Shown here piece by piece: positions 3,435-38,756 of a DNA stretch of 64,000 nucleotides. Made by a program: the position numbers and the translations under genes. The stretch covers positions 1,707,273 to 1,771,272 of the forward strand of contig OZ244950.1 of the NCBI GenBank assembly GCA_965222435.1. The letters are read 5' to 3'. The notes under the pieces were generated by a model. It worked only from the letters and a program-made list of their open reading frames with translations, was not told the origin of the DNA and ran no database searches. Each line of letters starts with the position of its first letter. Position 1 is the first letter of the stretch. The DNA comes from Candidatus Poribacteria bacterium (GTDB taxonomy: Bacteria > Poribacteria > WGA-4E > PCPOR2b).

Positions 3435-4359
3435 TATCGTCATTATCGGTGGCGGCACGGCGGGTTTCGCCGCAGGGGTCTACACCTCACGGGCAATGCT
3501 GGAGCCGCTGCTCATCACCGGAGACGCACTCGGTGGGCAACTCTCACTGACGCTTGATCTTGAGAATTATCCGGGCTTCTTCGGGACCGAGGCCGCAGAA
3601 TTTATCACAGGGATGCAGAAACAAGCCGAGCGTTTTGGGACAGAGGTAAAGTTTGACATGGTAACGGAAGTGGACTTCAATCGCCACCCGTTCTACCTGA
3701 AGACCTATGACCAAGAGTACCTCGCCAAATCGGTTATTATTTGTACCGGTGCCTCCCCACGGACACTCAATATCCCCGGCGAGGAAGGGTACGGCGGACG
3801 TGGCGTCTCCTACTGCGCTACCTGCGATGGATTCTTTTTCCAGAACCAACGCCTCATCGTTGTCGGTGGCGGCGACGCCGCCCTTGAGGAGGGGATATTT
3901 CTGACAAAGTATGCGTCGGAGGTCTATGTCGTTCACCGCCGAGATCAGCTTCGCGCCAGCCAAATTATGCAGGAACGTGCCTTCAAGAACGATAAAATCA
4001 AGTTCATCTGGGATACGGTTGTCGAAGAGATCCAAGGGGACGACGAAAAGGTTACCGGTGCGCTGCTCAGAAACGTGAAGACCGACGAAAAGCAGGTGTT
4101 TCCGATTGATGGTGTATTTATCTTTATCGGACATATCCCGAACACCGATCTATTCAAAGGTGTGATCGACATGGATGAACAGGAGTACATCGTGGTGGAC
4201 AAACTCCAACGCACCAATATCGACGGTGTTTTTGCAGCAGGTGATGTACATGACCATATCTTCCGTCAAGCGATCACAGCGGCGGGTGCCGGTGCCGCGG
4301 CGGCTATCTCATCGGAGAAGTTCATCGCTGAATTGGAGAACCGCGCCTATCCGGGATAG
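3391..4359 (+). CDS. trxB: thioredoxin-disulfide reductase
   Basis: IVIIGGGTAGFAAG FAD-binding motif and CATCDGFFF redox-active disulfide motif; start uncertain (overlaps glutaredoxin 3' end, a TTG at about 3421 is an alternative). Confidence 0.8.
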   Translation: MAEIKNGSDGLEERNIVIIGGGTAGFAAGVYTSRAMLEPLLITGDALGGQLSLTLDLENYPGFFGTEAAEFITGMQKQAERFGTEVKFDMVTEVDFNRHPFYLKTYDQEYLAKSVIICTGASPRTLNIPGEEGYGGRGVSYCATCDGFFFQNQRLIVVGGGDAALEEGIFLTKYASEVYVVHRRDQLRASQIMQERAFKNDKIKFIWDTVVEEIQGDDEKVTGALLRNVKTDEKQVFPIDGVFIFIGHIPNTDLFKGVIDMDEQEYIVVDKLQRTNIDGVFAAGDVHDHIFRQAITAAGAGAAAAISSEKFIAELENRAYPG

Positions 4360-12470: not shown

Positions 12471-12512
12471 AGGGCAAATAACTTTACCCAAAATGGCTTT
12501 TCAAACAGGTTC

Positions 12513-13070
12513 TTAGAGAAACGCTTTCTCTCTCGATTCCTCCGAGACATCCCACGCACGGTCATATTCATAGTCGTCCCGACGCGCTAACAGTGCCCGC
12601 AGATCGTGTCGCAGTTCCTCCACGGTGGGTCTTCCAACAAACCACCAACCGTTGTAAATCTTGTAGATCTCCCGGTCCGCGTTAAGGACGAAAGTATAGG
12701 GGATAGGAATCGGCGAGTGGCGGGCGTCCGTGTTGTCTACAATGTCCAATTCATTGATCAATGCCCGGTCAAGGTCAATCAGGAAGGGCCACGTCGCGCC
12801 GATACGTTCACGAAGCGCCCTCGTTGTTTCCTGATCATCAACTGAGACAGCAATTAGCCTACAGTAGTTGACTTCTAGTTCGGGCTGCAAATCTTTTGCG
12901 TAATTCTCCAACTGGAGAACATCCTTCGGTCAATATGCCCCACGCCAGAAGACCAAGACCGTGGGCCAACCACGCATCAAATCCTCCAGCGTTCTGACCA
13001 TGCCATCTTGATCGGGACGTTCAAAGTTCGGGAATATGTTGCCCGGTATCAAATCTTCACGGATCTTCAT
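12513..13070 (-). CDS. thioredoxin-fold redoxin (peroxiredoxin-like) with in-frame TGA: candidate selenoprotein
   Basis: ATG at 13070..13068 preceded by aggagg (5-nt spacer); reading frame is continuous with listed ORF 12513..12911 except for one TGA at 12932..12930; translation ...TVLVFWRGAY-U-PKDVLQLENYAKDLQ... places TGA at the expected redox-Cys position. Confidence 0.6.
12904..12919 (-). promoter_or_regulatory. candidate bacterial SECIS hairpin
   Basis: uucucc-AGUU-ggagaa hairpin beginning 14 nt after the in-frame UGA, apical loop contains GU. Confidence 0.4.
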
Positions 13071-13146
13071 TGTAACCTCCTGCCTTACGAAACCACATGT
13101 ATAGGACTTATCAGTTCACCCAACCAATGAACTCATAATGAACTTC

Positions 13147-13170
13147 TCACGCATTACGTATCACGTTTTA
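13147..13170 (-). repeat. 7-nt-periodic stop-codon motif at gene end (TAA-TGA-TAA-TGA)
   Basis: Minus-strand stops at 13170, 13163, 13156, 13149, covering all three frames. Confidence 0.4.
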
Positions 13171-14346
13171 CGAGGCTTGTACCTCTTCCCATCGCTCCGT
13201 CTCCCATGAGCGTTCAATCGCGCCCAACACCTTAGCCACAGCCAACGCCTCACGAAAAGCAGGCTCACCTTGGTGTCCATCTCGGATCGACTTCAAGAAT
13301 TGATAGGCTTCGATCATCTTCAAATCTTCGTAGCCTAAACCGACACCGGGGCCGGGATTGAAATGTGCATGAAACGGGTGTTCGGGACCACTCACGATGC
13401 GAGTGTAACCATTAGGCGCACCATCGTTGTCAGAAAGAAACAGATGGAGTTCATTCATACGCTCAAAGTCCCAGTGTACCGCGCCGCGCGTACCGTGCAC
13501 CTCAAACGCCATCTGACACTCGGGACCATTTATGACACGGCACCCTTCCAGTGTGCCATGCGCCCCATTAGAAAATTGCACCAATGCACCGACATAATCT
13601 TCGTTGGTGACTTCGCCTATTGGACCATCTGTGCGGACAGAAAAATGCGTACCTTCGCCGGGGGTAGCAAGCGGACGTTCTGAGAAGAAAGTCTCGCGGT
13701 TGCCCACCAAACGGTTGATCGGACCGGCTATCATCTGCGCCATATCAACGACATGCGACATCAGATCGCCCAAAGTACCTAGACCCGCCACCTCACGCTG
13801 AAAACGCCACGACAGCACAGCGTGCGGATTGCTAGCGTAACCCGCAAAGAAACGCCCTCGATAGTGTGTGAGCCTGCCGAGACACCCTTCCTCAATCAGC
13901 TGCCGGGCGTACTGCACAAGCGGTGTCCATCGGTAATTATAGCCCACACAGGTCAAAACGCCAGCCCGTCGAGCGGCATCTTCGATCGCAGCGGTCTCTT
14001 GTGGATTTCGACCAACAGGTTTCTCACAGAAGATATGCTTCCCCGCTTCGGCAGCCGCTCTCGCAATTTCGAGGTGCATATTGTTTGGCGCGGTGATGTT
14101 GACGAGCTCCACCTCCGGATCAGCAATAACCTGTCTCCAATCCGTAGCGTATCTTTCAAAGCCTAAAAACGTCTGTGCTTCACGGGCACGGGCTTCCACC
14201 TCATCGGCGCAGATGACCAAGCGCGGCTGAATGTCACAGTCCTGAAAGCGGATCGGAATCTGTCGGTAGGAGCGGCTGTGCACAGTTCCCATCCACCCCA
14301 TACCGATAACACCGATGCCTATCGTTCGTGCCATAGCTGACCTCAA
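13168..14346 (-). CDS. Gfo/Idh/MocA family oxidoreductase
   Basis: N-terminal [16 protein letters not shown] Rossmann motif; 392 aa. Confidence 0.75.
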
Positions 14347-28308: not shown

Positions 28309-28348
28309 ATTATTTCGGTTAATTCAAAATTATTTCGGTTAATTCAAA
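28309..28348. promoter_or_regulatory. perfect 20-bp tandem direct repeat upstream of hypothetical gene
   Basis: tatttcggttaattcaaaRR x2, about 40 to 75 nt upstream of the minus-strand ATG at 28273. Confidence 0.3.
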
Positions 28349-28391: not shown

Positions 28392-28415
28392 TCACGTTTC
28401 ACGTTTTATATTTCA
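28392..28415 (-). repeat. 7-nt-periodic ACGTGAA heptamers at carB stop
   Basis: Minus-strand TGA at 28401 (stop) and 28394, with a third CGTGAA unit 14 nt upstream inside the coding region. Confidence 0.35.
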
Positions 28416-31400
28416 CGTAATAATCTTGTAACGGGGTCACAGTAATCTCGCCACGGCGGAGCGCATCAATGCCATTGATTGCCGCTGATGCACCGGCGAT
28501 CGTAGAAAATAGGGTAATTCCGTAATCAATTGCCATCTGCCGAATTAATTCCTCATTTGGACGATGCGCATACCCGGTAGGTGTATTGATAATCAGATCG
28601 ACGGCATTGTTTTTGACGTAATCGTGGATGGTCGGGCGCCCTTTGCCGATACTATGAACCAGCGTCACCTCCATGCCGTTACGACGAAGGACCTTCGCTG
28701 TACCGTGCGTGGCGATCAGTTGAAATCCCAGATCAACTAGCTTTTTGGCGATAAAGATAATTGCGCGCTTATCCTTATTTTTTACGCTGATGAACGCATG
28801 ACCACCGAGAGGTAGTCCATAACCGACCGCCTGTTGCGCCTTGGCAAAAGCGATACTCAGGTCAGCATCAATCCCCATCACCTCGCCTGTTGATTTCATC
28901 TCAGGACCGAGTTGGGAATTTGCCCCCGGGAAGCGATTGAACGGAAACACCGGTGCTTTCACCGAAAAATAATCCGGCTCAATCTGCCTCGTAAATCCAA
29001 GTTCTTCAAGAGTCCTTCCCGTCATGATGCGGGCGGCGAGTTTTGCCAACGGCACTCCTATCGTCTTGCTCACAAACGGCACGGTGCGCGACGCACGCGG
29101 GTTGACCTCCAACACATAAATCTCATCGTTCTTTATCGCATACTGTATATTCATCAACCCGCGCACGTTGAGTGCCTTTGCCAGCGCGTCAGTATACTCC
29201 TTGAGCGTATCGATCTGCTCCTCAACAAGCGTGTAAGGCGGCAGCACACAATCGCTATCTCCAGAGTGGATACCTGCCTCCTCGATATGTTCCATGATCC
29301 CGCCGACGACGGTGAGGTGCCCGTCGGAAATCGCATCAACATCAACTTCGATGGCATCCTCCAAATACTTGTCGATTAACACGGGATGTTCGGGTGAGGC
29401 TGCGACCGCCGAATCCATATATGCTTCCAGATCATCTTGGTCATAGACAATCCGCATTGCCCGTCCCCCCAAAACGTACGAAGGACGCACCATAACCGGG
29501 TATCCAAGTGCCGCGGCAATCGGCGTGGCTTCCTTGAGCGAAGTTGCCGTGCCATTTGGGGGCTGCATTAAGCCAAGTCCGTCGAGCAACTCTGTAAACT
29601 GCTTCCGATCCTCCGATCTTGCAATGTCCTCTGGGCTTGTCCCTATAATTGGAACACCCGCCTTCTGGAGTCCAAGCGCGAGATTCAAGGGTGTCTGTCC
29701 ACCAAGCTGCACGATAACCCCGTTCGGTTTCTCCCGATCAACGATGTTCAACACATTTTCGTGCGTGAGCGGTTCAAAGTAGAGCCGATCTGAGGTATCG
29801 TAATCCGTGCTCACAGTTTCGGGATTGCTATTGACCATAATGGTCTCATAGTTATCCTCTTTAAGTGCGAGTGCCGCGTGAACACAACAGTAATCGAACT
29901 CAATGCCTTGACCTATCCGATTCGGACCGCTACCTAAAATCAAGATTTTCCTCTTCTCGCTAGGTCTGACCTCATCCTCCATGCCGTAGGTAGAATAGTA
30001 GTAAGGCGTCTCCGCTTCAAACTCCGCAGCACAGGTATCCACCGTCTTAAACGTGGCTTCAATTCCGTGCTCCTTCCGCAGCGCTCGGATACTTGCCTCA
30101 GAAGCGTTCCAAAGTTCCCCTATCTGAGGGTCTGAGAAGCCATACTGCTTTGCTTTACGGAGCAGGGAAACAGACGAATCAGGCAGCTGAGAAATATCCA
30201 GCGTGTCTAGTTTACTTTCGTTTCCGACTTTCCGAATTTCTTCCTCAAAATCGACAATCTCCTTTATATTATACAGGAAAAATGGATCGATGTGTGTATA
30301 TCCGTGAATCTGATCTATATTCATTCCGCTTTGGAAAGCTTGTTTTATATAAAGGACGCGCTCCATATTGGGAATGGTCAACTTCTGTGGAAGTTCCGAG
30401 ACAGGCAATTTCTGGATGGAACGGCTGTCGAGTCCCATCCAACCGTTTTCTAAGGATCTCAACCCCTTCTGCAAGGATTCCTTGAACGTCCGTCCGATTG
30501 CCATCGCCTCACCCACGGACTTCATCATCGTCGTTAGCGTCTCATCGGTGCCGGCGAATTTCTCAAATGCCCAACGCGGAATCTTTGTCACAACGTAATC
30601 AATGGTCGGTTCAAACGACGCAGGGGTTTTGCGCGTAATATCATTGGGAAGCTCGTCGAGGGTGTATCCGACAGCTAGCTTCGCTGCGATCTTTGCTATC
30701 GGAAATCCTGTCGCTTTCGAGGCGAGTGCAGAACTCCGAGAGACCCGCGGGTTCATTTCAATCACAACCTGTTTCCCTGTATCGGGATCGACCGCAAACT
30801 GGATATTTGAACCGCCGGTGTCCACACCAATTTCACGAATAATCTTAATCGCTGCATCCCGCATCTGTTGATACTCTTTGTCCGTCAAGGTCTGGGCGGG
30901 CGCAACCGTAATACTGTCGCCGGTGTGAACCCCCATCGGATCGAAATTCTCAATGGAACAGATAATCACGACGTTATCTGTTCTATCCCGCATTACCTCA
31001 AGCTCAAATTCTTTCCAGCCAATCACCGACTCCTCAATTAGCACCTCGTTGACCGGACTCAACCCCAATCCGTACTCGACCATCTCCCGGAATTCTTCGA
31101 TATTGTAAGCAATGCCTCCGCCGGTGCCACCGAGTGTGAACGCGGGCCGAATAATCGCTGGATAACCGATCTCCTCAACGATAGCAATCGCATCGTCATA
31201 CGAATGGGCAATGCCGCTTTTTGGCACCGCCAAGCCAATCCGCTCCATCGCCTTCTTGAATAGGCCTCGATCCTCCGCTTTTTGGATAGCGGGAAGTTTC
31301 GCGCCAATCAACTCAACCTCGTACTTATCCAACACACCCGATTCAGCAAGCTCAACAGAGACATTCAACCCTGTCTGTCCACCCAAAGTTGGGAGTAGGG

Positions 31401-31653
31401 CTTGGGGACGTTCCTGAGCAATAATTCGTTCGGCGATATCCGCATTAATCGGTTCAACATAGGTGCGGTCTGCAAGCTCCGTGTCCGTCATAATTGTTGC
31501 CGGATTGCTGTTGACAAGGACAACCTCATACCCCTCCTCCTTCAAGGATTTACACGCCTGAGTGCCCGAATAGTCAAACTCGCAGGCTTGACCGATAATA
31601 ATCGGGCCGGAGCCGATAATTAGGATCTTTTTGATGTCAGTTCGCTTTGGCAT
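28399..31653 (-). CDS. carB: carbamoyl-phosphate synthase large subunit
   Basis: [36 protein letters not shown]-terminus, duplicated ATP-grasp halves, C-terminal MGS-like domain; start set to internal ATG 31653. Confidence 0.9.
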
Positions 31654-31770
31654 GGTAAATAACCTTATCGTATTGTTATCGGGACAGAATTTAACGCAAA
31701 GGCGCGAAGGTACAAGGATTTTTCTCTTCTTTTCCCTGCACCTCATTACGGCATTGCGTTGTTTTCTTTC

Positions 31771-31787
31771 TCACGTTTCACGCATCA
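31771..31787 (-). repeat. three tandem heptamers giving TGA in all three frames at carA stop
   Basis: Minus-strand acgtgat-gcgtgaa-acgtgag; TGA at 31787, 31780, 31773. Confidence 0.4.
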
Positions 31788-32963
31788 CGTCTTACTCATC
31801 AGATCCGTGAACCTCTTAAAAAGATACCTTGCGTCATGGGGACCGGGAGACGCCTCCGGATGATACTGCACAGCAAAGATCGGATATTCTCTGTGCTCCA
31901 TCCCTTCAAGGGTTTGATCGTTCAAGTTGATATGCGTCACCTTTACATTGTTTGGCAGTGAGTCAATGTCCACGCAGAAACCGTGATTTTGTGAGGTAAT
32001 TTCGACCTGATCTGTGTCGAATCGTTTAACAGGCTGATTTGCGCCGCGATGCCCGAATTTGAGTTTGAAAGTCTTTCCGCCAAATGCAAGTCCCAACAGT
32101 TGATGCCCCAAACAGATACCAAAGATTGGCTTCACCCCAATCAACTGCTGAATCGTCTTGATGCCGTATTCAATCGGTTCCGGATCGCCGGGACCGTTGG
32201 ATAAGAAGATACCATCTGGGTTCGCGGCAAGAATATCTTCTGCAGAAGTGTGTGCTGGCACCACTTGAACCTGACAACCGTGTTGGGTAAGCTGGCGTAA
32301 GATATTATATTTAACCCCGAAATCCACTGCAATAACTCGGAACTGGGGAGTTGACGGTGCCTCAATCCCTGTTGTGTCAAAGTCGATCGTGAGTTGGGAA
32401 TCTTTAGCATCGGCGGTGGGGCTCAACTCAGAGAGAGCGTCTGATTCGGGGTCGCGTGTCTCCCATAAGTACGGATTCGGGCATGTCACGTACTGAACCA
32501 TATCTACACCAACCAACCCGTGCCACGCCTGCGCTTTGGCAACCAAGCTTTGGGGGTCAAGATCTTCCGTCGAAAGTATTCCATTCATGACGCCATGTAC
32601 TCTGAGCCGTTTGGTCAATGCGCGTGTGTCAATACCGTGGATGCCGATCATCCCATTTTCTTCGAGGTAGCGGCTGAGATTGGACTGTGAACGCCAGTTG
32701 CTCTCGTATGCACTATATTCACGCACAACAAATCCTTCGGCTTGCGGTCGAATTGATTCGACATCGATTTCGTTGCAGCCGTAGTTTCCGATTAGCGGGT
32801 AGGTCATCGTGACGATCTGCCCCTTGTAGGATGGATCGGTGAGAATCTCTTGGTAGCCGGTCATACTGGTGTTGAAAACCACCTCACCGGAGGTTTCCCC
32901 GGTCGCGCCGAAATGTTCGCCTTCAAAGATTGTTCCATCCGCTAATGCGAGAATTGCTTTCAT
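31785..32963 (-). CDS. carA: carbamoyl-phosphate synthase small subunit
   Basis: MKAILALADGTIFEGEHFGA N-terminus and glutamine amidotransferase domain (GICLGHQLL, catalytic Cys). Confidence 0.9.
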   Translation of the reverse strand: MKAILALADGTIFEGEHFGATGETSGEVVFNTSMTGYQEILTDPSYKGQIVTMTYPLIGNYGCNEIDVESIRPQAEGFVVREYSAYESNWRSQSNLSRYLEENGMIGIHGIDTRALTKRLRVHGVMNGILSTEDLDPQSLVAKAQAWHGLVGVDMVQYVTCPNPYLWETRDPESDALSELSPTADAKDSQLTIDFDTTGIEAPSTPQFRVIAVDFGVKYNILRQLTQHGCQVQVVPAHTSAEDILAANPDGIFLSNGPGDPEPIEYGIKTIQQLIGVKPIFGICLGHQLLGLAFGGKTFKLKFGHRGANQPVKRFDTDQVEITSQNHGFCVDIDSLPNNVKVTHINLNDQTLEGMEHREYPIFAVQYHPEASPGPHDARYLFKRFTDLMSKT

Positions 32964-33564: not shown

Positions 33565-35187
33565 TCATGCCTCTATTTCAAGTTGCTGGCTTTGGGGGGC
33601 TGCCCGTTCTGCCCTGCGGAATGTGACATCAATAGGCGTCTGTGGATATTCAATACCGTGTCCCGCAAGCAGTTCCTCAATCGTCCGAATCTGAATCTTT
33701 GGATATGTCGTGTGAGTGACGTGAAGCCATTGAAAACGCCCTGCTGTCGCTGCTTCCTTGAGCATCGGTTGGGTCGGCGGATTCAGCGTGATAAAGACAC
33801 CAATCACAGCGTCTTGGGTTTCAACAACCGATTTCAGTTCCCGTATGTCCCTAACAGAAACCTTCCCACTTTTAACCTGAACGACAATCTTCCGGGTCAG
33901 CGTCTTTTTCGGCTTATCTGGATCAACATCCTGATAATAGATCATCCCGTCCACACCCTCGTCTGCCCCCTTCTTTTTCCCCTGATACGGTCTCGCCCGA
34001 ATCAGGCTTAACGCCCACCACTGGAATTGATACCGATCTTGAACCGCTAAAGCCTTCGCGCTCTCTGCATCTTTCGGCTCACCGATAACTTCGTATTTCA
34101 CACCGTCACCAAAGGCATCGGCAAGGCGGTACTTCAATAAAGCGATGGCAAGATGTGTGATGTCAACCCCAATCCACCGGCGGTTAAACTGTTGAGCAAC
34201 AGCGACAGCCGTCCCACAACCACAAAACGCGTCCAATACAACATCGCCTTCGTTACTACTCGCTTTGATAATCCGCTCAAGCAATGCTTCAGGCTTTTGG
34301 GTGGGATATCTGAGACGCTCTTTCGCTTGAGAGTTTATAGGTGGTATATCAACCCAAACATCCTGCATAGGAACACCGGGCATCTCATCTAAAAATTGTT
34401 TCAATCTAGGTGTACCATAGCGAGTATAGTATAGTTTGCCGGATTCATGGTATTCCTGCATAGTGCTATACGGACAGCGCCAAATCTTAGTTATTCCATT
34501 CCACTCATACTCATATCCTCCTCCACTCAAAGAGCCTGCCGTTAAATCCCTGTCTAAAAATCTTCTGCCATTTTCATCAGTATGTTTATAATACTTCTCA
34601 ATGTACCCATCAGAATATGGTAGATACTGTTCATTATGAGTGAAAGAATTACTTATTGAATAGTAAAGTATAATGTCATGTACGTTCCCATATACGGCAG
34701 AATCATTATGGGCTGCGGTTCGTCTCCAAGTAATCTCATTCCTGAAATTTTTAACGCCAAAAATCTGATCCAAGATAATCTTCAGATAATGCGACGCCGT
34801 CGGATCACAATGGAGATAAAAGCTCCCTGTCGGTTTCAGGACACGGTGGAGTTCCACCAATCGCAACCCCATCATCACGAGGTACGCCATCAGATTGTTT
34901 TCACCGAGGATTCCGCGAAAACTCTTGATTGTCTCAACCAGAAGGGGTGGCGCGGTCTCGACCAGCTCATAATATGCCTGCTCAGTGGTTTCGACCCAAT
35001 GCCATGTATCCTCAAAGGCTTGGATCTGTGCCTGCGACGATGAGCCATCCCTTTCGCTGAAAATCACGTTGTACGCTTGATTCGAGTTAAATGGCGGATC
35101 GATGTAAATGAGATCGACGCTTTCGTCGGGGATGTGGGCCCGCAAAATGTCTAGATTGTCACCATAGTAGAGTTGATTCATATCCAT
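33565..35187 (-). CDS. DNA methyltransferase (N6-adenine/N4-cytosine type) fused to a C-terminal Mrr-like PD-(D/E)xK nuclease domain
   Basis: Motif IV DPPF (LIYIDPPFNS) before motif I (VVLDAFCGCGTAVAVA), i.e. beta-class order; C-terminal GADEGVDGMIYY...VVQVKSGK...GVFITL resembles the Mrr catalytic domain. Confidence 0.6.
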   Translation of the reverse strand: MDMNQLYYGDNLDILRAHIPDESVDLIYIDPPFNSNQAYNVIFSERDGSSSQAQIQAFEDTWHWVETTEQAYYELVETAPPLLVETIKSFRGILGENNLMAYLVMMGLRLVELHRVLKPTGSFYLHCDPTASHYLKIILDQIFGVKNFRNEITWRRTAAHNDSAVYGNVHDIILYYSISNSFTHNEQYLPYSDGYIEKYYKHTDENGRRFLDRDLTAGSLSGGGYEYEWNGITKIWRCPYSTMQEYHESGKLYYTRYGTPRLKQFLDEMPGVPMQDVWVDIPPINSQAKERLRYPTQKPEALLERIIKASSNEGDVVLDAFCGCGTAVAVAQQFNRRWIGVDITHLAIALLKYRLADAFGDGVKYEVIGEPKDAESAKALAVQDRYQFQWWALSLIRARPYQGKKKGADEGVDGMIYYQDVDPDKPKKTLTRKIVVQVKSGKVSVRDIRELKSVVETQDAVIGVFITLNPPTQPMLKEAATAGRFQWLHVTHTTYPKIQIRTIEELLAGHGIEYPQTPIDVTFRRAERAAPQSQQLEIEA

Positions 35188-35190
35188 CGG

Positions 35191-35751
35191 CTATCTCTTT
35201 ATCTGTTGCGATTCGGACTTCAGAACCGAGTACAACTTCATATCGTGAAACTGCCCTCTAACGTAGACATACTTCCGCAAGACACCCTCAAGACTCATGC
35301 CAGCTTTCTCCATCACGCGGGCGGAGGCACAGTTCTCAACCATGCAGGTTCCCTCAATTCGATTAAGCCGCCAACGTTCAAAGCCGAATTGGATGATTGC
35401 TTGAGCGGTCTCAGTCGCATATCCTCTCCCCCAATACTTCCGACCAATATTGAAAGCGATCTCCGCCCTTTTGTGTTCAAAGTTCACATTGTGCAAGAAG
35501 CAGTTTCCGATGACCTTACCGTTCTCGGTCAGGACAACTCCCCAACACGCGAAATCATCGGTTGTTACCCATGAAATAAAGTCTCTGCTGTCCTCTATCG
35601 ATTGGTGTGCCCGCCAAAACAGGTACATTGTCACCTGTGGGTCTGAAACCCACTCAAATATATCTTCTGCATCCGCCATCTCTAATGGTCTTAAAAGCAG
35701 CTTTTCAGTCTCTATCACAGGCAAATCGCTGAAGCGTTCGTCCTTAGCCAT
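35191..35751 (-). CDS. GNAT family N-acetyltransferase
   Basis: 186 aa, RimJ/RimL-like pattern (LLLRPLEMADAEDIFEWVSDPQV, acetyl-CoA-binding-like GRKYWGRGYATE). Confidence 0.7.
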   Translation of the reverse strand: MAKDERFSDLPVIETEKLLLRPLEMADAEDIFEWVSDPQVTMYLFWRAHQSIEDSRDFISWVTTDDFACWGVVLTENGKVIGNCFLHNVNFEHKRAEIAFNIGRKYWGRGYATETAQAIIQFGFERWRLNRIEGTCMVENCASARVMEKAGMSLEGVLRKYVYVRGQFHDMKLYSVLKSESQQIKR

Positions 35752-36029
35752 CCCCTACCCCATTTGCAAAATTAGTAGGTCGTGATTTTATTTTTTTATA
35801 GGACTTACACAGTTGAACACTGAGGTTTTGTAGTTCGATGCTTCAGTGCCAACGCGGGGCAAGTCCGAGAGGATTTCCGAAGAATCGAGAGCAGGCCCGT
35901 GACCGGGGAGGCCCCGCCTACGATGGGTATGGATTCTGACCATACCCCGAAACGCCCGATGAATCGGGCAACTACAAGCCGATGAATCGGGGAACTACGA
36001 TATGAGGTGCGTAAGTCCTGTTTTATTTA

Positions 36030-36046
36030 TCACGTTTCACGCTTCA
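36030..36046 (-). repeat. three tandem heptamers giving TGA in all three frames at pyrC stop
   Basis: Minus-strand acgtgaa-gcgtgaa-acgtgat; TGA at 36046, 36039, 36032. Confidence 0.4.
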
Positions 36047-37318
36047 CGTTCGGGTAACAACACCGTCCCGGATAGTCATCACAGACCATCCCTTCAATTC
36101 CCAACCGTCAAAGGGGGTATTACGGCTTTTGGAGGGAGACTGCGTCACATCCACCGTCGCAACCTTCTCCGGATCTATCAACGTCACGTCAGCAGCTGCA
36201 CCGATTGAGAGTGTTCCGCGATCAATTTGCAGAATCTTAGCAGGGACACAAGTCATTTTCGCTATCGCCTCCGATAACGTGAACTGACCCGTGTGGATAA
36301 GTCGATCAAATACAAGCGGTACGCAGGTCTCTGATCCGATGATGCCCGGCGGGGCGTCAAGCAGACCCTGCGCCTTTTCAAACGGGGCATGTGGCGCGTG
36401 GTCTGTCGCAATCGCATCGAGCGTACCGTCTTTGATCCCTTCGATGACGGCATCAACGTCAGCCTGTGTACGCAAGGGCGGATGCATCTTGGCATTCGTA
36501 CCCTGTTCTTCGACCGCTTTATCGGTGAGCGTAAAGTGGTGTGGCATCGCTTCGGCGGTCACATTGACACCCCTGCGTTTGCCCCAACGGACAAGATCAA
36601 CGGATCCCGCGGTACTAACATGGAGGACATGGAGGTGCCCGCCGGTCAGTTCAGCGAGCATGATGTCGCGGGCAACGATAATATCTTCCGCAGCGTTGGG
36701 GCTTCCTATCAGGTTCAACCGCCGCGATGTTTCGCCGAGGTTCATGACCGCTCCCACGTCAAGGTTATGTTCTTGGCAATGAACCATAACGGGAAAAGCG
36801 TGTTTCGCACTCAACGCCAGCACATCGCGCATCAACCCCGCATCCATGACCGTTTTGCCATCGTCTGATAGTCCGACAGCACCGGCTGCTATCAACGCTG
36901 GCACATCCGTCAATACTTCGCCATCAAGATTTTTCGTGATGCTGCCGATTGGAAACACATTTGTTGCACCATTTTTCCGCGCTTGTGACTGTATCAATTC
37001 GATAACATCGGGTGAATCTGCCACCGGATTGGTATTCGCCATGCACACAACAGAAGTAAATCCGCCAGCCGCTGCCGCCCGGGTGCCTGATGCGATTGTC
37101 TCCTTGTGCTCAAATCCGGGTTCGCGGAGATGAACGTGCATATCAATCAAGCCCGGCGTAACGATTAGCCCTGTCGCATCAACGGTTTGAGACGCCTCAA
37201 TTTCAATTCGGTCATCAATTCGATCGATTTTCCCATCACGAATCAGGAGATCTCCGGTGGTGTCAGTCTCGTTGGCAGGGTCAATAATCCGACCGTTTCG
37301 GATGAGTATCCGACTCAT
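36044..37318 (-). CDS. pyrC: dihydroorotase
   Basis: DMHVHLREPG metal-binding motif, amidohydrolase-superfamily fold, 424 aa; adjacent to pyrR. Confidence 0.85.
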   Translation of the reverse strand: MSRILIRNGRIIDPANETDTTGDLLIRDGKIDRIDDRIEIEASQTVDATGLIVTPGLIDMHVHLREPGFEHKETIASGTRAAAAGGFTSVVCMANTNPVADSPDVIELIQSQARKNGATNVFPIGSITKNLDGEVLTDVPALIAAGAVGLSDDGKTVMDAGLMRDVLALSAKHAFPVMVHCQEHNLDVGAVMNLGETSRRLNLIGSPNAAEDIIVARDIMLAELTGGHLHVLHVSTAGSVDLVRWGKRRGVNVTAEAMPHHFTLTDKAVEEQGTNAKMHPPLRTQADVDAVIEGIKDGTLDAIATDHAPHAPFEKAQGLLDAPPGIIGSETCVPLVFDRLIHTGQFTLSEAIAKMTCVPAKILQIDRGTLSIGAAADVTLIDPEKVATVDVTQSPSKSRNTPFDGWELKGWSVMTIRDGVVTRT

Positions 37319-38472: not shown

Positions 38473-38492
38473 CAGTCACCAAATCAGGGCAT

Positions 38493-38524
38493 AAAAAAAG
38501 CCTCCCCTACAGAAAGAGGGAGGC
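38493..38524 (-). terminator. intrinsic-terminator-like hairpin plus U7 in the leader of the HD-pyrR-pyrC cluster
   Basis: Minus-strand gcctccc-loop-gggaggc followed by ttttttt, about 20 nt upstream of the HD-gene ATG. Confidence 0.4.
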
Positions 38525-38756
38525 ACTTAACCATTCAATAGTTTTTGAGATATGGGAGTAACCGTAAATCATGTGTGATACCCTTTCCTAACCTCGCGGG
38601 ATCAGATTAAAAGGGAAAATTCTTCCATGTACGCCGCTGCCATTAAAACCGTTTTAAGTGTAGCACAATTGATCTATTTTTGCAAGAGAAATGTTGACCA
38701 TTGACATCGTGCGAAAATTCTGCTAAACTTAATCCCATCATTAAAATCAGGACTTA

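What the first reader, a model, noticed from the sequence alone, without database searches (positions are those of the whole stretch)
31771..31790. 7-nt-periodic ACGTGAN heptamer triplets overlapping the stop codons of carA, carB, pyrC and a Gfo/Idh/MocA gene
At four minus-strand gene ends the stop codon is the first of two to four tandem heptamers (carA: acgtgat-gcgtgaa-acgtgag; pyrC: acgtgaa-gcgtgaa-acgtgat; Gfo: TAA-TGA-TAA-TGA at 7-nt spacing; carB: two copies plus one upstream). Because 7 is congruent to 1 mod 3, three copies put a stop in each reading frame. Three of the four genes are pyrimidine-biosynthesis genes, and the genome appears to decode some UGA as Sec. This could be a back-up stop cassette, a protein or RNA binding site, or a short tandem repeat family. 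Other loci: 13147..13170, 28392..28415, 36030..36046.
Basis: seen in the sequence. Interest (0 to 1): 0.55.

Follow-up and report, generated by a model that had tools for sequence, protein, structure and literature searches.

The report
Heptamer simple-sequence repeats at gene ends
The stop-codon-overlapping ACGTGAN triplets are real, but they are short arrays of a 7-base tandem repeat, (CGTGAAA)n, found between genes in many bacterial phyla; they are not a signal specific to pyrimidine genes, and their function, if any, is unknown.

Summary
CGTGA/CGTAA copies at exact 7-nt spacing occur only at four minus-strand gene ends (pyrC, carA, carB, a Gfo/Idh/MocA gene): 5 exact adjacent pairs against 0.17 expected. 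Each array supplies the gene's stop codon.

The window is from Candidatus Poribacteria. Relatives with 81-93% identical CarA keep the arrays at the same three pyr gene ends, but copy number and sequence differ. A 79% relative lacks them there and has family arrays at unrelated genes.

About 60% of the hits are Chloroflexota; others are Poribacteria, Verrucomicrobiota, Nitrospirota and more.

In the 1.04 Mb fetched, 7-nt tandem repeats outnumber every other period (363 against 40 or fewer). The arrays follow the positional rule published for other heptamer repeats: intergenic, close to the ORF on their 5' side, sense after gene ends and antisense before gene starts.

Best reading: a new family of the known heptanucleotide simple-sequence-repeat class. 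The three-frame stops are a by-product of a TGA-bearing unit of length 7. The pyrimidine link is not supported. A selected function (stop pad, protein site, mobile-element end) is not excluded.

The parts
36030..36050 (-). Heptamer array at the pyrC end: three CGTGA copies; the first TGA (36046-36044) is the pyrC stop
   Evidence: The orthologous arrays in L001 and L251 differ in copy number and sequence.
31771..31797 (-). Heptamer array at the carA end: AGTAA (inside the ORF) plus three CGTGA copies; the stop is 31787-31785
   Evidence: The alignment with L001 shows a one-unit indel inside an otherwise roughly 93% identical spacer. L251 has a MITE-like insertion inside this array.
28392..28418 (-). 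Heptamer array at the carB end: CGTGA, TATAA, CGTGA, CGTGA. The ORF reads through two copies (C-terminus VKYKT) and stops in the third (28401-28399)
   Evidence: L001 and L251 stop at the first copy (DYY*). L250 reads HYVKRGT* through the array.
13147..13172 (-). Heptamer array at the end of the Gfo/Idh/MocA oxidoreductase gene: CGTAA, CGTGA, CGTAA, CGTGA; the stop is the first TAA (13170-13168). It is followed by two GTTCATT copies
   Evidence: The same GTTCATT motif follows family arrays in other Poribacteria genomes.

Best explanation
The four sites are short arrays (3-4 units) of one heptanucleotide simple-sequence repeat, unit (A/G)CGTGA(A/T), here called the CGTGAAA family. It is one of many 7-nt tandem-repeat families that fill the non-coding DNA of Poribacteria, Chloroflexota and some other phyla.

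Shown:
- the arrays gain and lose whole units and decay by G/C-to-A/T changes between close relatives, while staying at the same gene junctions;
- they are intergenic;
- their 5' end, on the TGA strand, lies close to the neighbouring ORF;
- they are sense after gene ends and antisense before gene starts.

Inferred:
- They are made and maintained by replication slippage, which has been proposed to favour 7-nt units (Mrazek 2007, as cited in PMC4679880 and PMC4692102).
- The unit contains TGA and 7 = 1 mod 3, so any ORF that meets a sense array is closed within three units. A sense array can therefore abut or replace the stop codon but cannot spread further into the gene. That produces the 'stop = first copy, stops in all three frames' picture without selection for it.
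- The antisense unit TTTCACG has no start or stop codon in any frame. The sense unit carries GTG and TGA, giving the mini-ORF GTG AAA CGT GAA ACG TGA. This would explain why only the antisense orientation is tolerated just upstream of start codons.
- Three arrays falling in one pyr operon reflects local history in one Poribacteria clade, not a pyrimidine regulon.
For: 1. Family and taxonomy. The pattern CGTGAWRCGTGAAACGTGA is expected about 17 times by chance in 596 Gb, by my own calculation assuming uniform base composition. About 75 rows are Chloroflexota and 5 are Poribacteria; the rest are Verrucomicrobiota, Nitrospirota, Acidobacteriota, Desulfococcaceae and others.
2. Period. In the 1.04 Mb fetched, tandem repeats of 3 or more copies number 363 at period 7, against 40 (period 8), 30 (9), 23 (6) and 5 (5). 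More than 200 of the period-7 arrays are other units, often adjacent to the CGTGA arrays.
3. Repeat dynamics. Window, L251 (93% CarA identity), L001 (92%) and L250 (81%) keep arrays at the same pyrC, carA and carB ends. Units are added or lost, and variants CGTAA, TGTAA, CATGA and TATAA appear. The carA-carB spacer is otherwise about 93% identical to L001.
4. Not pyr-specific. L002 (79%) lacks them at the pyr genes and has them at PhyH (antisense, 5' UTR) and TPR (sense, 46 nt after the stop) genes. Other Poribacteria arrays sit at unrelated genes.
5. Positional rule in 195 arrays. The median gap is 20 nt to the 5'-side ORF and 86.5 nt to the 3'-side ORF, and 73 arrays are nearer the 5' side against 18 nearer the 3' side. 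83 are sense after a gene end; 33 plus at least 16 are antisense before a gene start. The same rule is published for GGGAATC/GGGGAYT heptamers in Xanthomonas and Nostoc, including overlap of stop codons (PMC4692102).
6. No general selection for stops. Other heptamer arrays at 3' ends carry a stop on the sense strand only in 13 cases, on the antisense strand only in 10, on both in 6 and on neither in 15.
7. Gene-end census. Among 179 Poribacteria gene ends, stops at both +7 and +14 occur 8 times, always in heptamer arrays. Other spacings give 0-2.
8. No alternative element. No Rfam family matches the arrays, no terminator follows them, and three of the four 3' flanks do not fold unusually well (z = +0.12, +0.55 and -1.99); the exception is the carA-carB spacer at z = -3.35.
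Against: - The same unit recurs at many loci and in distant phyla, which independent slippage of random seeds does not explain.
- Arrays of only 3-4 units have persisted at three junctions down to 81% CarA identity, while the rest of the spacers diverged. This hints at maintenance by selection, or by an unknown homogenising process.
- The gene's stop is the first in-phase stop more often than one in three: 27, 7 and 11 for first, second and third (p = 6e-4).
- In-phase offsets (-7, -14) are about four times commoner than neighbouring offsets.
- carA's stop is overlapped by four different stop-bearing heptamer families in separate Poribacteria lineages: CGTGAAA, CAGTTAA, GTATTAG and TGGTTAA.
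- Inverted pairs are always (CGTGAAA)n...(TTTCACG)n, 39 against 0. Slippage alone does not predict this.
Confidence: 0.6

Rival explanations
1. Selected three-frame stop pad. The arrays are kept because they terminate ribosomes that read through or frameshift at the end of the upstream gene, which insulates the next cistron or spacer RNA.
For: - Every copy, degenerate ones included, keeps T-R-A.
- Arrays are anchored in phase on the real stop: 27, 7 and 11 for first, second and third in-phase stop, p = 6e-4.
- A 1-nt indel at the carB end is absorbed by the array: window VKYKT* against L001/L251 DYY*.
- Four unrelated stop-bearing heptamer families overlap the carA stop in different lineages.
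- Stops at +7 and +14 occur at 8 of 179 gene ends, against 0-2 for other spacings.
Against: - About a quarter of family arrays are antisense upstream of gene starts, and others lie 20-230 nt beyond the stop.
- Arrays reach 40 units, far more than three frames need.
- Other heptamer arrays at gene ends show no excess of sense-strand stops.
- All observed unit changes are G/C to A/T, so TGA to TAA is what mutation bias alone would give.
- GGGAATC repeats obey the same positional rule and contain no stop.
- Only 4 of 59 gene ends in the window have an array.
Confidence: 0.12
2. Binding site for a protein that reads a 7-nt register. On RNA this would resemble HutP (UAG-N4 x3) or TRAP. On DNA it would resemble the factor postulated for Nostoc heptamer repeats. 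It would give a dispersed post-transcriptional or transcriptional network.
For: - One specific unit is shared across loci and phyla at far above chance.
- The register is a strict 7 nt.
- There is an orientation rule, and inverted pairs are of one type only, 39 against 0.
- Arrays lie immediately next to ribosome-binding sites in some cases, such as L002 PhyH.
- Regulatory effects of other heptamer repeats are reported in Nostoc (bioRxiv 10.1101/2022.06.06.494920) and proposed for TAACTGA (PMC4679880).
Against: - No candidate protein was found.
- The associated genes are unrelated.
- Copy number runs from 2 to 40.
- Arrays are lost at orthologous sites beyond about 80% CarA identity.
- Units decay freely.
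- The triplet is UGA/UAA, not HutP's UAG.
Confidence: 0.15
3. Ends or remnants of a small non-autonomous mobile element whose terminal inverted repeats are heptamer arrays. On this view solo arrays such as those in the window are decayed half-elements.
For: - Inverted pairs are always outward-facing, 39 against 0, with 3-358 nt between the arms.
- In some Chloroflexia the sequence next to the arrays is also conserved...CGTGA-TGCGGYT... in L128, L129 and L213.
- The L250 carA-carB spacer has arms ACGTAAAACGCAAAA / TTTTGCGTTTTACGT about 380 nt apart.
- The distribution is patchy across phyla and includes viral contigs.
- A GTTCATT motif travels with arrays in Poribacteria.
Against: - The window arrays have no inverted partner.
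- Changes between relatives are whole-unit indels typical of slippage.
- No transposase is associated.
- The arms are themselves tandem repeats of variable length, and many other heptamer units behave the same way.
- In L251 the array is the target of a different MITE, not its end.
Confidence: 0.1

Closest known systems
GGGAATC / GGGGA(C/T)T heptameric SSRs of Xanthomonas and Nostoc (Rehm et al. 2015, PMC4692102)
   Same: - Tandem 7-nt units with a mode of about 4 copies.
- About 90% intergenic.
- Closer to the 5'-neighbouring ORF (28 nt against 160 nt there; 20 against 86.5 nt here).
- On the coding strand downstream of ORFs, including overlap of stop codons, and on the non-coding strand upstream of ORFs.
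[quoted passage not shown]
- Inverted pairs occur.
- Associated genes are functionally unrelated and the function is unknown.
   Different: The unit is G-rich and forms G-quadruplexes, and it has no stop codon. CGTGAAA has no G-tract and carries TGA and GTG. The taxa differ.
TAACTGA direct repeats of marine Beggiatoaceae, Cyanobacteria and Bacteroidetes (MacGregor 2015, PMC4679880)
   Same: - An intergenic heptamer direct repeat of 2-6 copies, with long arrays in some taxa.
- The unit carries stop codons, so the forward orientation can overlap a gene end only briefly.
- Patchy cross-phylum distribution that suggests horizontal spread.
- No common function among neighbouring genes.
   Different: The unit sequence differs. 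In BOGUAY most arrays lie a few nucleotides upstream of start codons, in forward orientation. Here sense arrays mostly follow gene ends, and the arrays upstream of starts are antisense.
Cyanobacterial STRR heptanucleotide repeats (Calothrix PCC 7601; cited in PMC4692102) and the 'long simple sequence repeat' class in which heptamers dominate (Mrazek 2007, as cited in PMC4679880)
   Same: Tandemly amplified heptanucleotides, several families per genome, non-coding location, and heptamers as the dominant unit length.
   Different: Different units and phyla. The STRR sequences themselves were recalled from memory, not checked here.
HutP-binding site of the Bacillus hut mRNA (three UAG triplets spaced by 4 nt; from my own knowledge, not checked here)
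   Same: An RNA motif with a 7-nt register built on a stop-like triplet.
   Different: The triplet is UAG, not UGA/UAA. That site lies in a 5' leader terminator region and needs HutP. There is no evidence for either here.

Membership tests
Heptanucleotide simple sequence repeats (long SSR class) | Head-to-tail copies of a 7-nt unit, more copies than composition predicts | tested here: met
   exact 7-nt spacing, 5 pairs against 0.17 expected.
Heptanucleotide simple sequence repeats (long SSR class) | Many arrays of the same unit per genome, with heptamers the dominant period | tested here: met
   Period 7 gives 363 arrays against 40 or fewer for any other period in 1.04 Mb. Several arrays per MAG appear in the scan. 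Whole-genome counts were not possible.
Heptanucleotide simple sequence repeats (long SSR class) | Copy-number and sequence variation between close relatives at the same locus | tested here: met
   Window against L251, L001 and L250 at pyrC, carA and carB.
Heptanucleotide simple sequence repeats (long SSR class) | Non-coding location, close to the 5'-side ORF; coding strand after ORFs, non-coding strand before ORFs (Rehm 2015) | tested here: met
   using heuristic gene calls.
Heptanucleotide simple sequence repeats (long SSR class) | Generated by replication slippage | not testable with these tools
   Inferred from whole-unit indels. Testing it needs population or mutation-accumulation data.
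TAACTGA repeat family (MacGregor 2015) | Unit TAACTGA | tested here: not met
   The unit here is CGTGAAA.
TAACTGA repeat family (MacGregor 2015) | Arrays mostly within a few nt upstream of start codons | tested here: not met
   The window arrays start at stop codons and lie about 105-290 nt upstream of the next gene's start (carA array to the true carB start 31644; pyrC array to the GNAT ATG at about 35751).
HutP-type RNA site | Three UAG triplets separated by 4 nt | tested here: not met
   The triplets are UGA/UAA.
HutP-type RNA site | A HutP protein encoded in the genome | not tested
   The whole genome was not available.
PyrR attenuator (RF00515) | Match to the PyrR-binding stem-loop model | tested here: not met
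   The only PyrR site is the operon leader, 38491-38618. Nothing matched at the arrays even at E <= 1.
Intrinsic terminator | GC-rich hairpin followed by a T run just after the gene | tested here: not met

The most novel reading that the evidence does not exclude
(CGUGAAA)n is a functional, horizontally spread element. It could be a translation-insulating pad (stops and GUG mini-ORFs in all frames), or the target of an undiscovered protein that reads a 7-nt register. Its fixed outward-facing orientation (39 inverted pairs to 0; 5' end anchored on ORF boundaries) would then reflect function in gene-end and gene-start definition across Chloroflexota, Poribacteria and other phyla.
Probability: 0.12. 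Interest if true: 0.65.

Novelty: new member of a known kind. Interest (0 to 1): 0.3.

Why it matters
For this window, it removes a tempting false lead. There is no pyrimidine-specific stop cassette or regulator site, and the only pyrimidine RNA signal is the PyrR leader.

More broadly, it adds a widespread heptamer repeat family that the searched literature does not describe. No paper in the library contains the unit. The family obeys the same unexplained positional rule as the Xanthomonas and Nostoc repeats. This strengthens the case that bacterial heptamer repeats share a common origin or constraint that is still not understood.

The arrays also affect annotation. They create GTG-started false ORF extensions, variable C-termini (carB: [15 protein letters not shown]) and hot spots for MITE insertion.

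Tried and rejected
- Pyrimidine regulon or PyrR site: Rfam at gathering and E <= 1 thresholds finds only the operon leader. Arrays are absent from the pyr genes of the 79% relative and present elsewhere in it.
- Known RNA family, for example a Chloroflexi repeat motif: there were no Rfam hits on 18 array-bearing loci.
- Terminator or stable structure at the window arrays: none found.
- General 'three-frame stop after every gene' habit of the genome: rejected. Only heptamer arrays give stops at +7 and +14.
- General selection for sense-strand stops in heptamer repeats: not seen.
- A strong sense-over-antisense bias: it was first estimated at 83 against 33, then weakened. At least 16 of the 31 arrays 'inside antisense ORFs' are ORF-extension artefacts that belong to the antisense, upstream-of-start class.
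- Look-up of the window's own CarA to find strain variants: not on record.
- Literature search for the unit: no relevant result. One unrelated paper contains the reverse-complement string TCACGTTTCACG.
- Not tried: metagenome-contig scan, structure prediction, further protein homology searches. None of these bears on a non-coding repeat.

Full report
**1. Observation**

Reading the four loci on the minus strand confirms the description.

| Gene end | Sequence | Coordinates (-) | Stop codon |
|---|---|---|---|
| pyrC | ACGTGAaGCGTGAaACGTGA | 36049-36030 | first TGA, 36046-36044 |
| carA | (AGTAAg)ACGTGAtGCGTGAaACGTGA | 31796-31771 | 31787-31785 |
| carB | CGTGAaaTATAAaaCGTGAaaCGTGA | 28417-28392 | third copy, 28401-28399 |
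| Gfo/Idh/MocA | CGTAAaaCGTGAtaCGTAAtgCGTGA | 13172-13147 | first TAA, 13170-13168 |

- CGTGANNCGTGA occurs 5 times against 0.17 expected from shuffles. The three-copy pattern with up to 2 mismatches occurs 5 times against 0.08.
- On the minus strand the only CGTGA-to-CGTGA spacings up to 30 nt are 7, 14 and 21. On the plus strand none of these occurs.
- A position-by-position score finds no other array in the window.
- The last sense codon is ACG or TCG in all four, so the CG of the first unit is coding.

**2. Surroundings and organism**

- Pfam and orthologue annotation give this gene order on the minus strand: PyrR-binding leader (Rfam RF00515, 38491-38618), HD-domain gene, PRTase (PyrR-like), pyrC, an inserted GNAT plus N6/N4-methylase-Mrr block, carA, carB, and a 262-aa protein.
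- The fourth array is 15 kb away, on a Gfo/Idh/MocA oxidoreductase gene.
- CarA homologues of 72-93% identity are named Candidatus Poribacteria.

**3. Relatives**

- L251 (CarA 93%), L001 (92%) and L250 (81%) keep arrays at the same pyrC, carA and carB ends, but units are gained, lost or degraded.
  - L001 pyrC reads TGAagCGTGAaaCGTAAtgTGTAAgaTAA.
  - L001 carA has one more unit than the window, inside a spacer that is otherwise about 93% identical.
  - At carB a 1-nt difference moves the stop. L001 and L251 end DYY* at the first unit, the window ends VKYKT* at the third, and L250 reads HYVKRGT*.
- All unit changes seen are G/C to A/T (CGTAA, TGTAA, CATGA, TATAA).
- L002 (79%) and the 72-76% relatives lack family arrays at these genes. 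L002 has the family elsewhere:
  - antisense, 3 nt upstream of the PhyH ribosome-binding site;
  - sense, 46 nt after a TPR gene's stop.
- The carA stop is overlapped by different heptamer repeats in other lineages:
  - (CAGTTAA)n in L005;
  - (GTATTAG)n with an inverted (CCTAATA)4 in L002;
  - (TGGTTAA)n in L247 and L249.

**4. Distribution**

- In the 185,579-species genome collection, CGTGAWRCGTGAAACGTGA also stopped at 120 rows. About 17 chance matches are expected by my calculation, assuming uniform composition.
- About 75 rows are Chloroflexota and 5 are Poribacteria. The rest are Verrucomicrobiota, Desulfococcaceae, Nitrospirota, Acidobacteriota, Gemmatimonadota, Bacteroidota, Planctomycetota, Proteobacteria and others.
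- Tandem Repeats Finder on the 1.04 Mb fetched gives 363 arrays of 3 or more copies at period 7. Other periods give 40 (period 8), 30 (9), 23 (6) and 5 (5).
- More than 200 of the period-7 arrays are other units, often next to the CGTGA arrays. These are heptamer-repeat-rich genomes.

**5. Position rules**

I defined 195 family arrays and called genes with a greedy ORF heuristic.

- 164 arrays are intergenic. Of the 31 that appear 'inside' antisense ORFs, at least 16 lie 32-136 nt from the ORF start. These are ORF-extension artefacts, because the antisense unit has no stop codon.
- 83 arrays are sense, within 300 nt after a gene end. 33 plus at least 16 are antisense, upstream of a gene start.
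- The median gap is 20 nt to the 5'-side ORF and 86.5 nt to the 3'-side ORF. 73 arrays are nearer the 5' side and 18 nearer the 3' side.
- Where a gene ends in phase with an array, it uses the first, second or third in-phase stop in 27, 7 and 11 cases (p = 6e-4).
- Inverted pairs are always (CGTGAAA)n...(TTTCACG)n: 39 of this type and none of the opposite type.
- Other heptamer repeats next to gene ends show no preference for a stop on the sense strand: 13 sense only, 10 antisense only, 6 both, 15 neither.
- Among 179 Poribacteria gene ends, stops at both +7 and +14 occur 8 times, always in heptamer arrays. Other spacings give 0-2.

**6. Other tests**

- No Rfam family matches the arrays, either in the window or in 18 array-bearing loci.
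- No terminator-like site follows the window arrays.
- Three of the four 3' flanks do not fold unusually well; the carA-carB spacer does (z = -3.35).
- The window arrays have no inverted partner.

**7. Literature**

- Heptamers are reported as the commonest unit of long simple sequence repeats in prokaryotes. Slippage linked to the DNA segment held by the polymerase is the proposed cause (Mrazek 2007, as summarised in PMC4679880 and PMC4692102).
- Rehm et al. 2015 describe GGGAATC/GGGGAYT heptamers that match this family on these points:
  - 89-93% are intergenic;
  - they lie nearer the 5' ORF (28 nt against 160 nt);
  - they are on the coding strand after ORFs, including overlap of stop codons, and on the non-coding strand before ORFs;
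  - they are conserved in location but variable in length between close species;
  - their function is unknown.
- MacGregor 2015 describes TAACTGA repeats with a patchy cross-phylum distribution. She notes that stops in the forward orientation limit overlap with gene ends.
- A Nostoc preprint reports regulatory effects of other heptamer repeats.
- No paper in the library contains the CGTGAAA unit.

**8. Interpretation**

- The arrays are a new family of a known class. The shared positional rule with a stop-free family, and the lack of stop enrichment in other families, argue that the three-frame stops are a consequence of the unit (TGA, length 7), not the reason the arrays exist.
- A constraint argument fits the orientation rule. 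This argument is inference.
  - Sense arrays close any ORF within three units, so they may abut or supply a stop.
  - Just upstream of a start codon, sense arrays would add GTG...TGA mini-ORFs.
  - The antisense unit has neither start nor stop codons.
- Several things remain unexplained:
  - why one unit recurs across loci and phyla;
  - why 3-4-unit arrays persist down to 81% CarA identity;
  - why stops are preferentially the first unit;
  - why inverted pairs are of one type only.
- These observations keep three rivals alive: a selected stop pad (0.12), a protein-binding site (0.15) and mobile-element ends (0.10).

**9. Verdict**

Novelty is a new member of a known kind, with interest 0.3.

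Noticed in passing
window 38491-38618 (-), terminator-like hairpin 38519-38501 (-): An Rfam PyrR-binding leader (54.5 bits, gathering score 54), with a hairpin plus T-run, lies upstream of an HD-domain gene, a PRTase (PyrR-like) and pyrC. It is the only PyrR site in the cluster, and pyrB is not in this operon.
   Followed up: partly
window 12510-13043 (-): An AhpC/TSA-like ORF has an in-frame TGA at ...VFWRGAY*PKDV..., near where the catalytic Cys usually lies (my judgement, not checked against a reference). The L001 orthologue is called as two ORFs of 76 and 140 aa.
   Followed up: partly
window 35800-36019: A segment of about 220 nt just after the pyrC array is flanked by 12-nt inverted repeats (AGGACTTACRCA). 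It is absent from L001, where GNAT starts 57 nt after pyrC. It looks like a MITE and contains CCCGATTCATCGGG-type hairpin repeats.
   Followed up: partly
window 31645-31784 (-); L001 11180-11315; L250 1396-1818; L251 6180-6522: The carA-carB spacer is about 93% identical to L001 and folds better than its shuffles (z = -3.35), with a stem AACGCAA/TTGCGTT. In L250 the matching arms (ACGTAAAACGCAAAA / TTTTGCGTTTTACGT) enclose about 380 nt. In L251 an element of about 270 nt with GCTCATGT inverted ends sits inside the array. The true carB start is about 31644 (ATGCCAAAGCGAACT), not the first ATG of the ORF.
   Followed up: partly
L005 11203-11234; L002 11180-11258; L247 7160-7190; L249 7175-7210; L248 10516-10840: Other stop-bearing heptamer repeats overlap the carA stop in other Poribacteria: (CAGTTAA)n, (GTATTAG)n with an inverted (CCTAATA)4, and (TGGTTAA)n. 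Several heptamer families fill the spacer after carB in L248. The carA 3' end looks like a hot spot.
   Followed up: partly
L127-L246 (e.g. L144 5035-, L136 1813-, L141 4948/5035, L208, L231): Family arrays often occur as inverted pairs. All 39 are of the type (CGTGAAA)n-loop-(TTTCACG)n and none is of the opposite order, with 3-358 nt between the arms. This is unexplained.
   Followed up: partly
window 13105-13140 (-); L131 ~2150-2175; L155 ~2830-2850; L164 ~330-362; L198 ~3840-3880: A second short repeat (GTTCATT or its complement AATGAAC, period 7-9) accompanies CGTGA arrays in several Poribacteria genomes. This may be a composite element.
   Followed up: partly
L004 10580-10602; L005 10547-10649: Perfect heptamer and octamer tandem repeats, (AACCGAC)x3.3, (AGCCGAA)x3.1 and (AATCTTCC)x3.2, lie inside the carA coding region of two Poribacteria. 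They are apparently in frame as a variable insert.
   Followed up: no
window 33565-35751 (-): A GNAT acetyltransferase and an N6/N4 DNA methylase fused to an Mrr-like nuclease domain are inserted between pyrC and carA in the window, L001 and L251. They are absent in L004-L006 and L247-L249.
   Followed up: no
window 28309-28348: A perfect 20-nt tandem duplication (ATTATTTCGGTTAATTCAAA x2) lies between carB and the next gene.
   Followed up: no
L019, L029, L034, L060, L066, L086 (IMG/VR contigs): Viral contigs carry long CGTGANN-type heptamer arrays of 9-13 units, and also inverted array pairs (L066 11100-11151).
   Followed up: no
L245 5450-5700 (Desulfococcaceae bacterium HSG8): An array of about 40 units mixes ACGTGAA and ACGTGAT units. 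It is the longest array seen.
   Followed up: no
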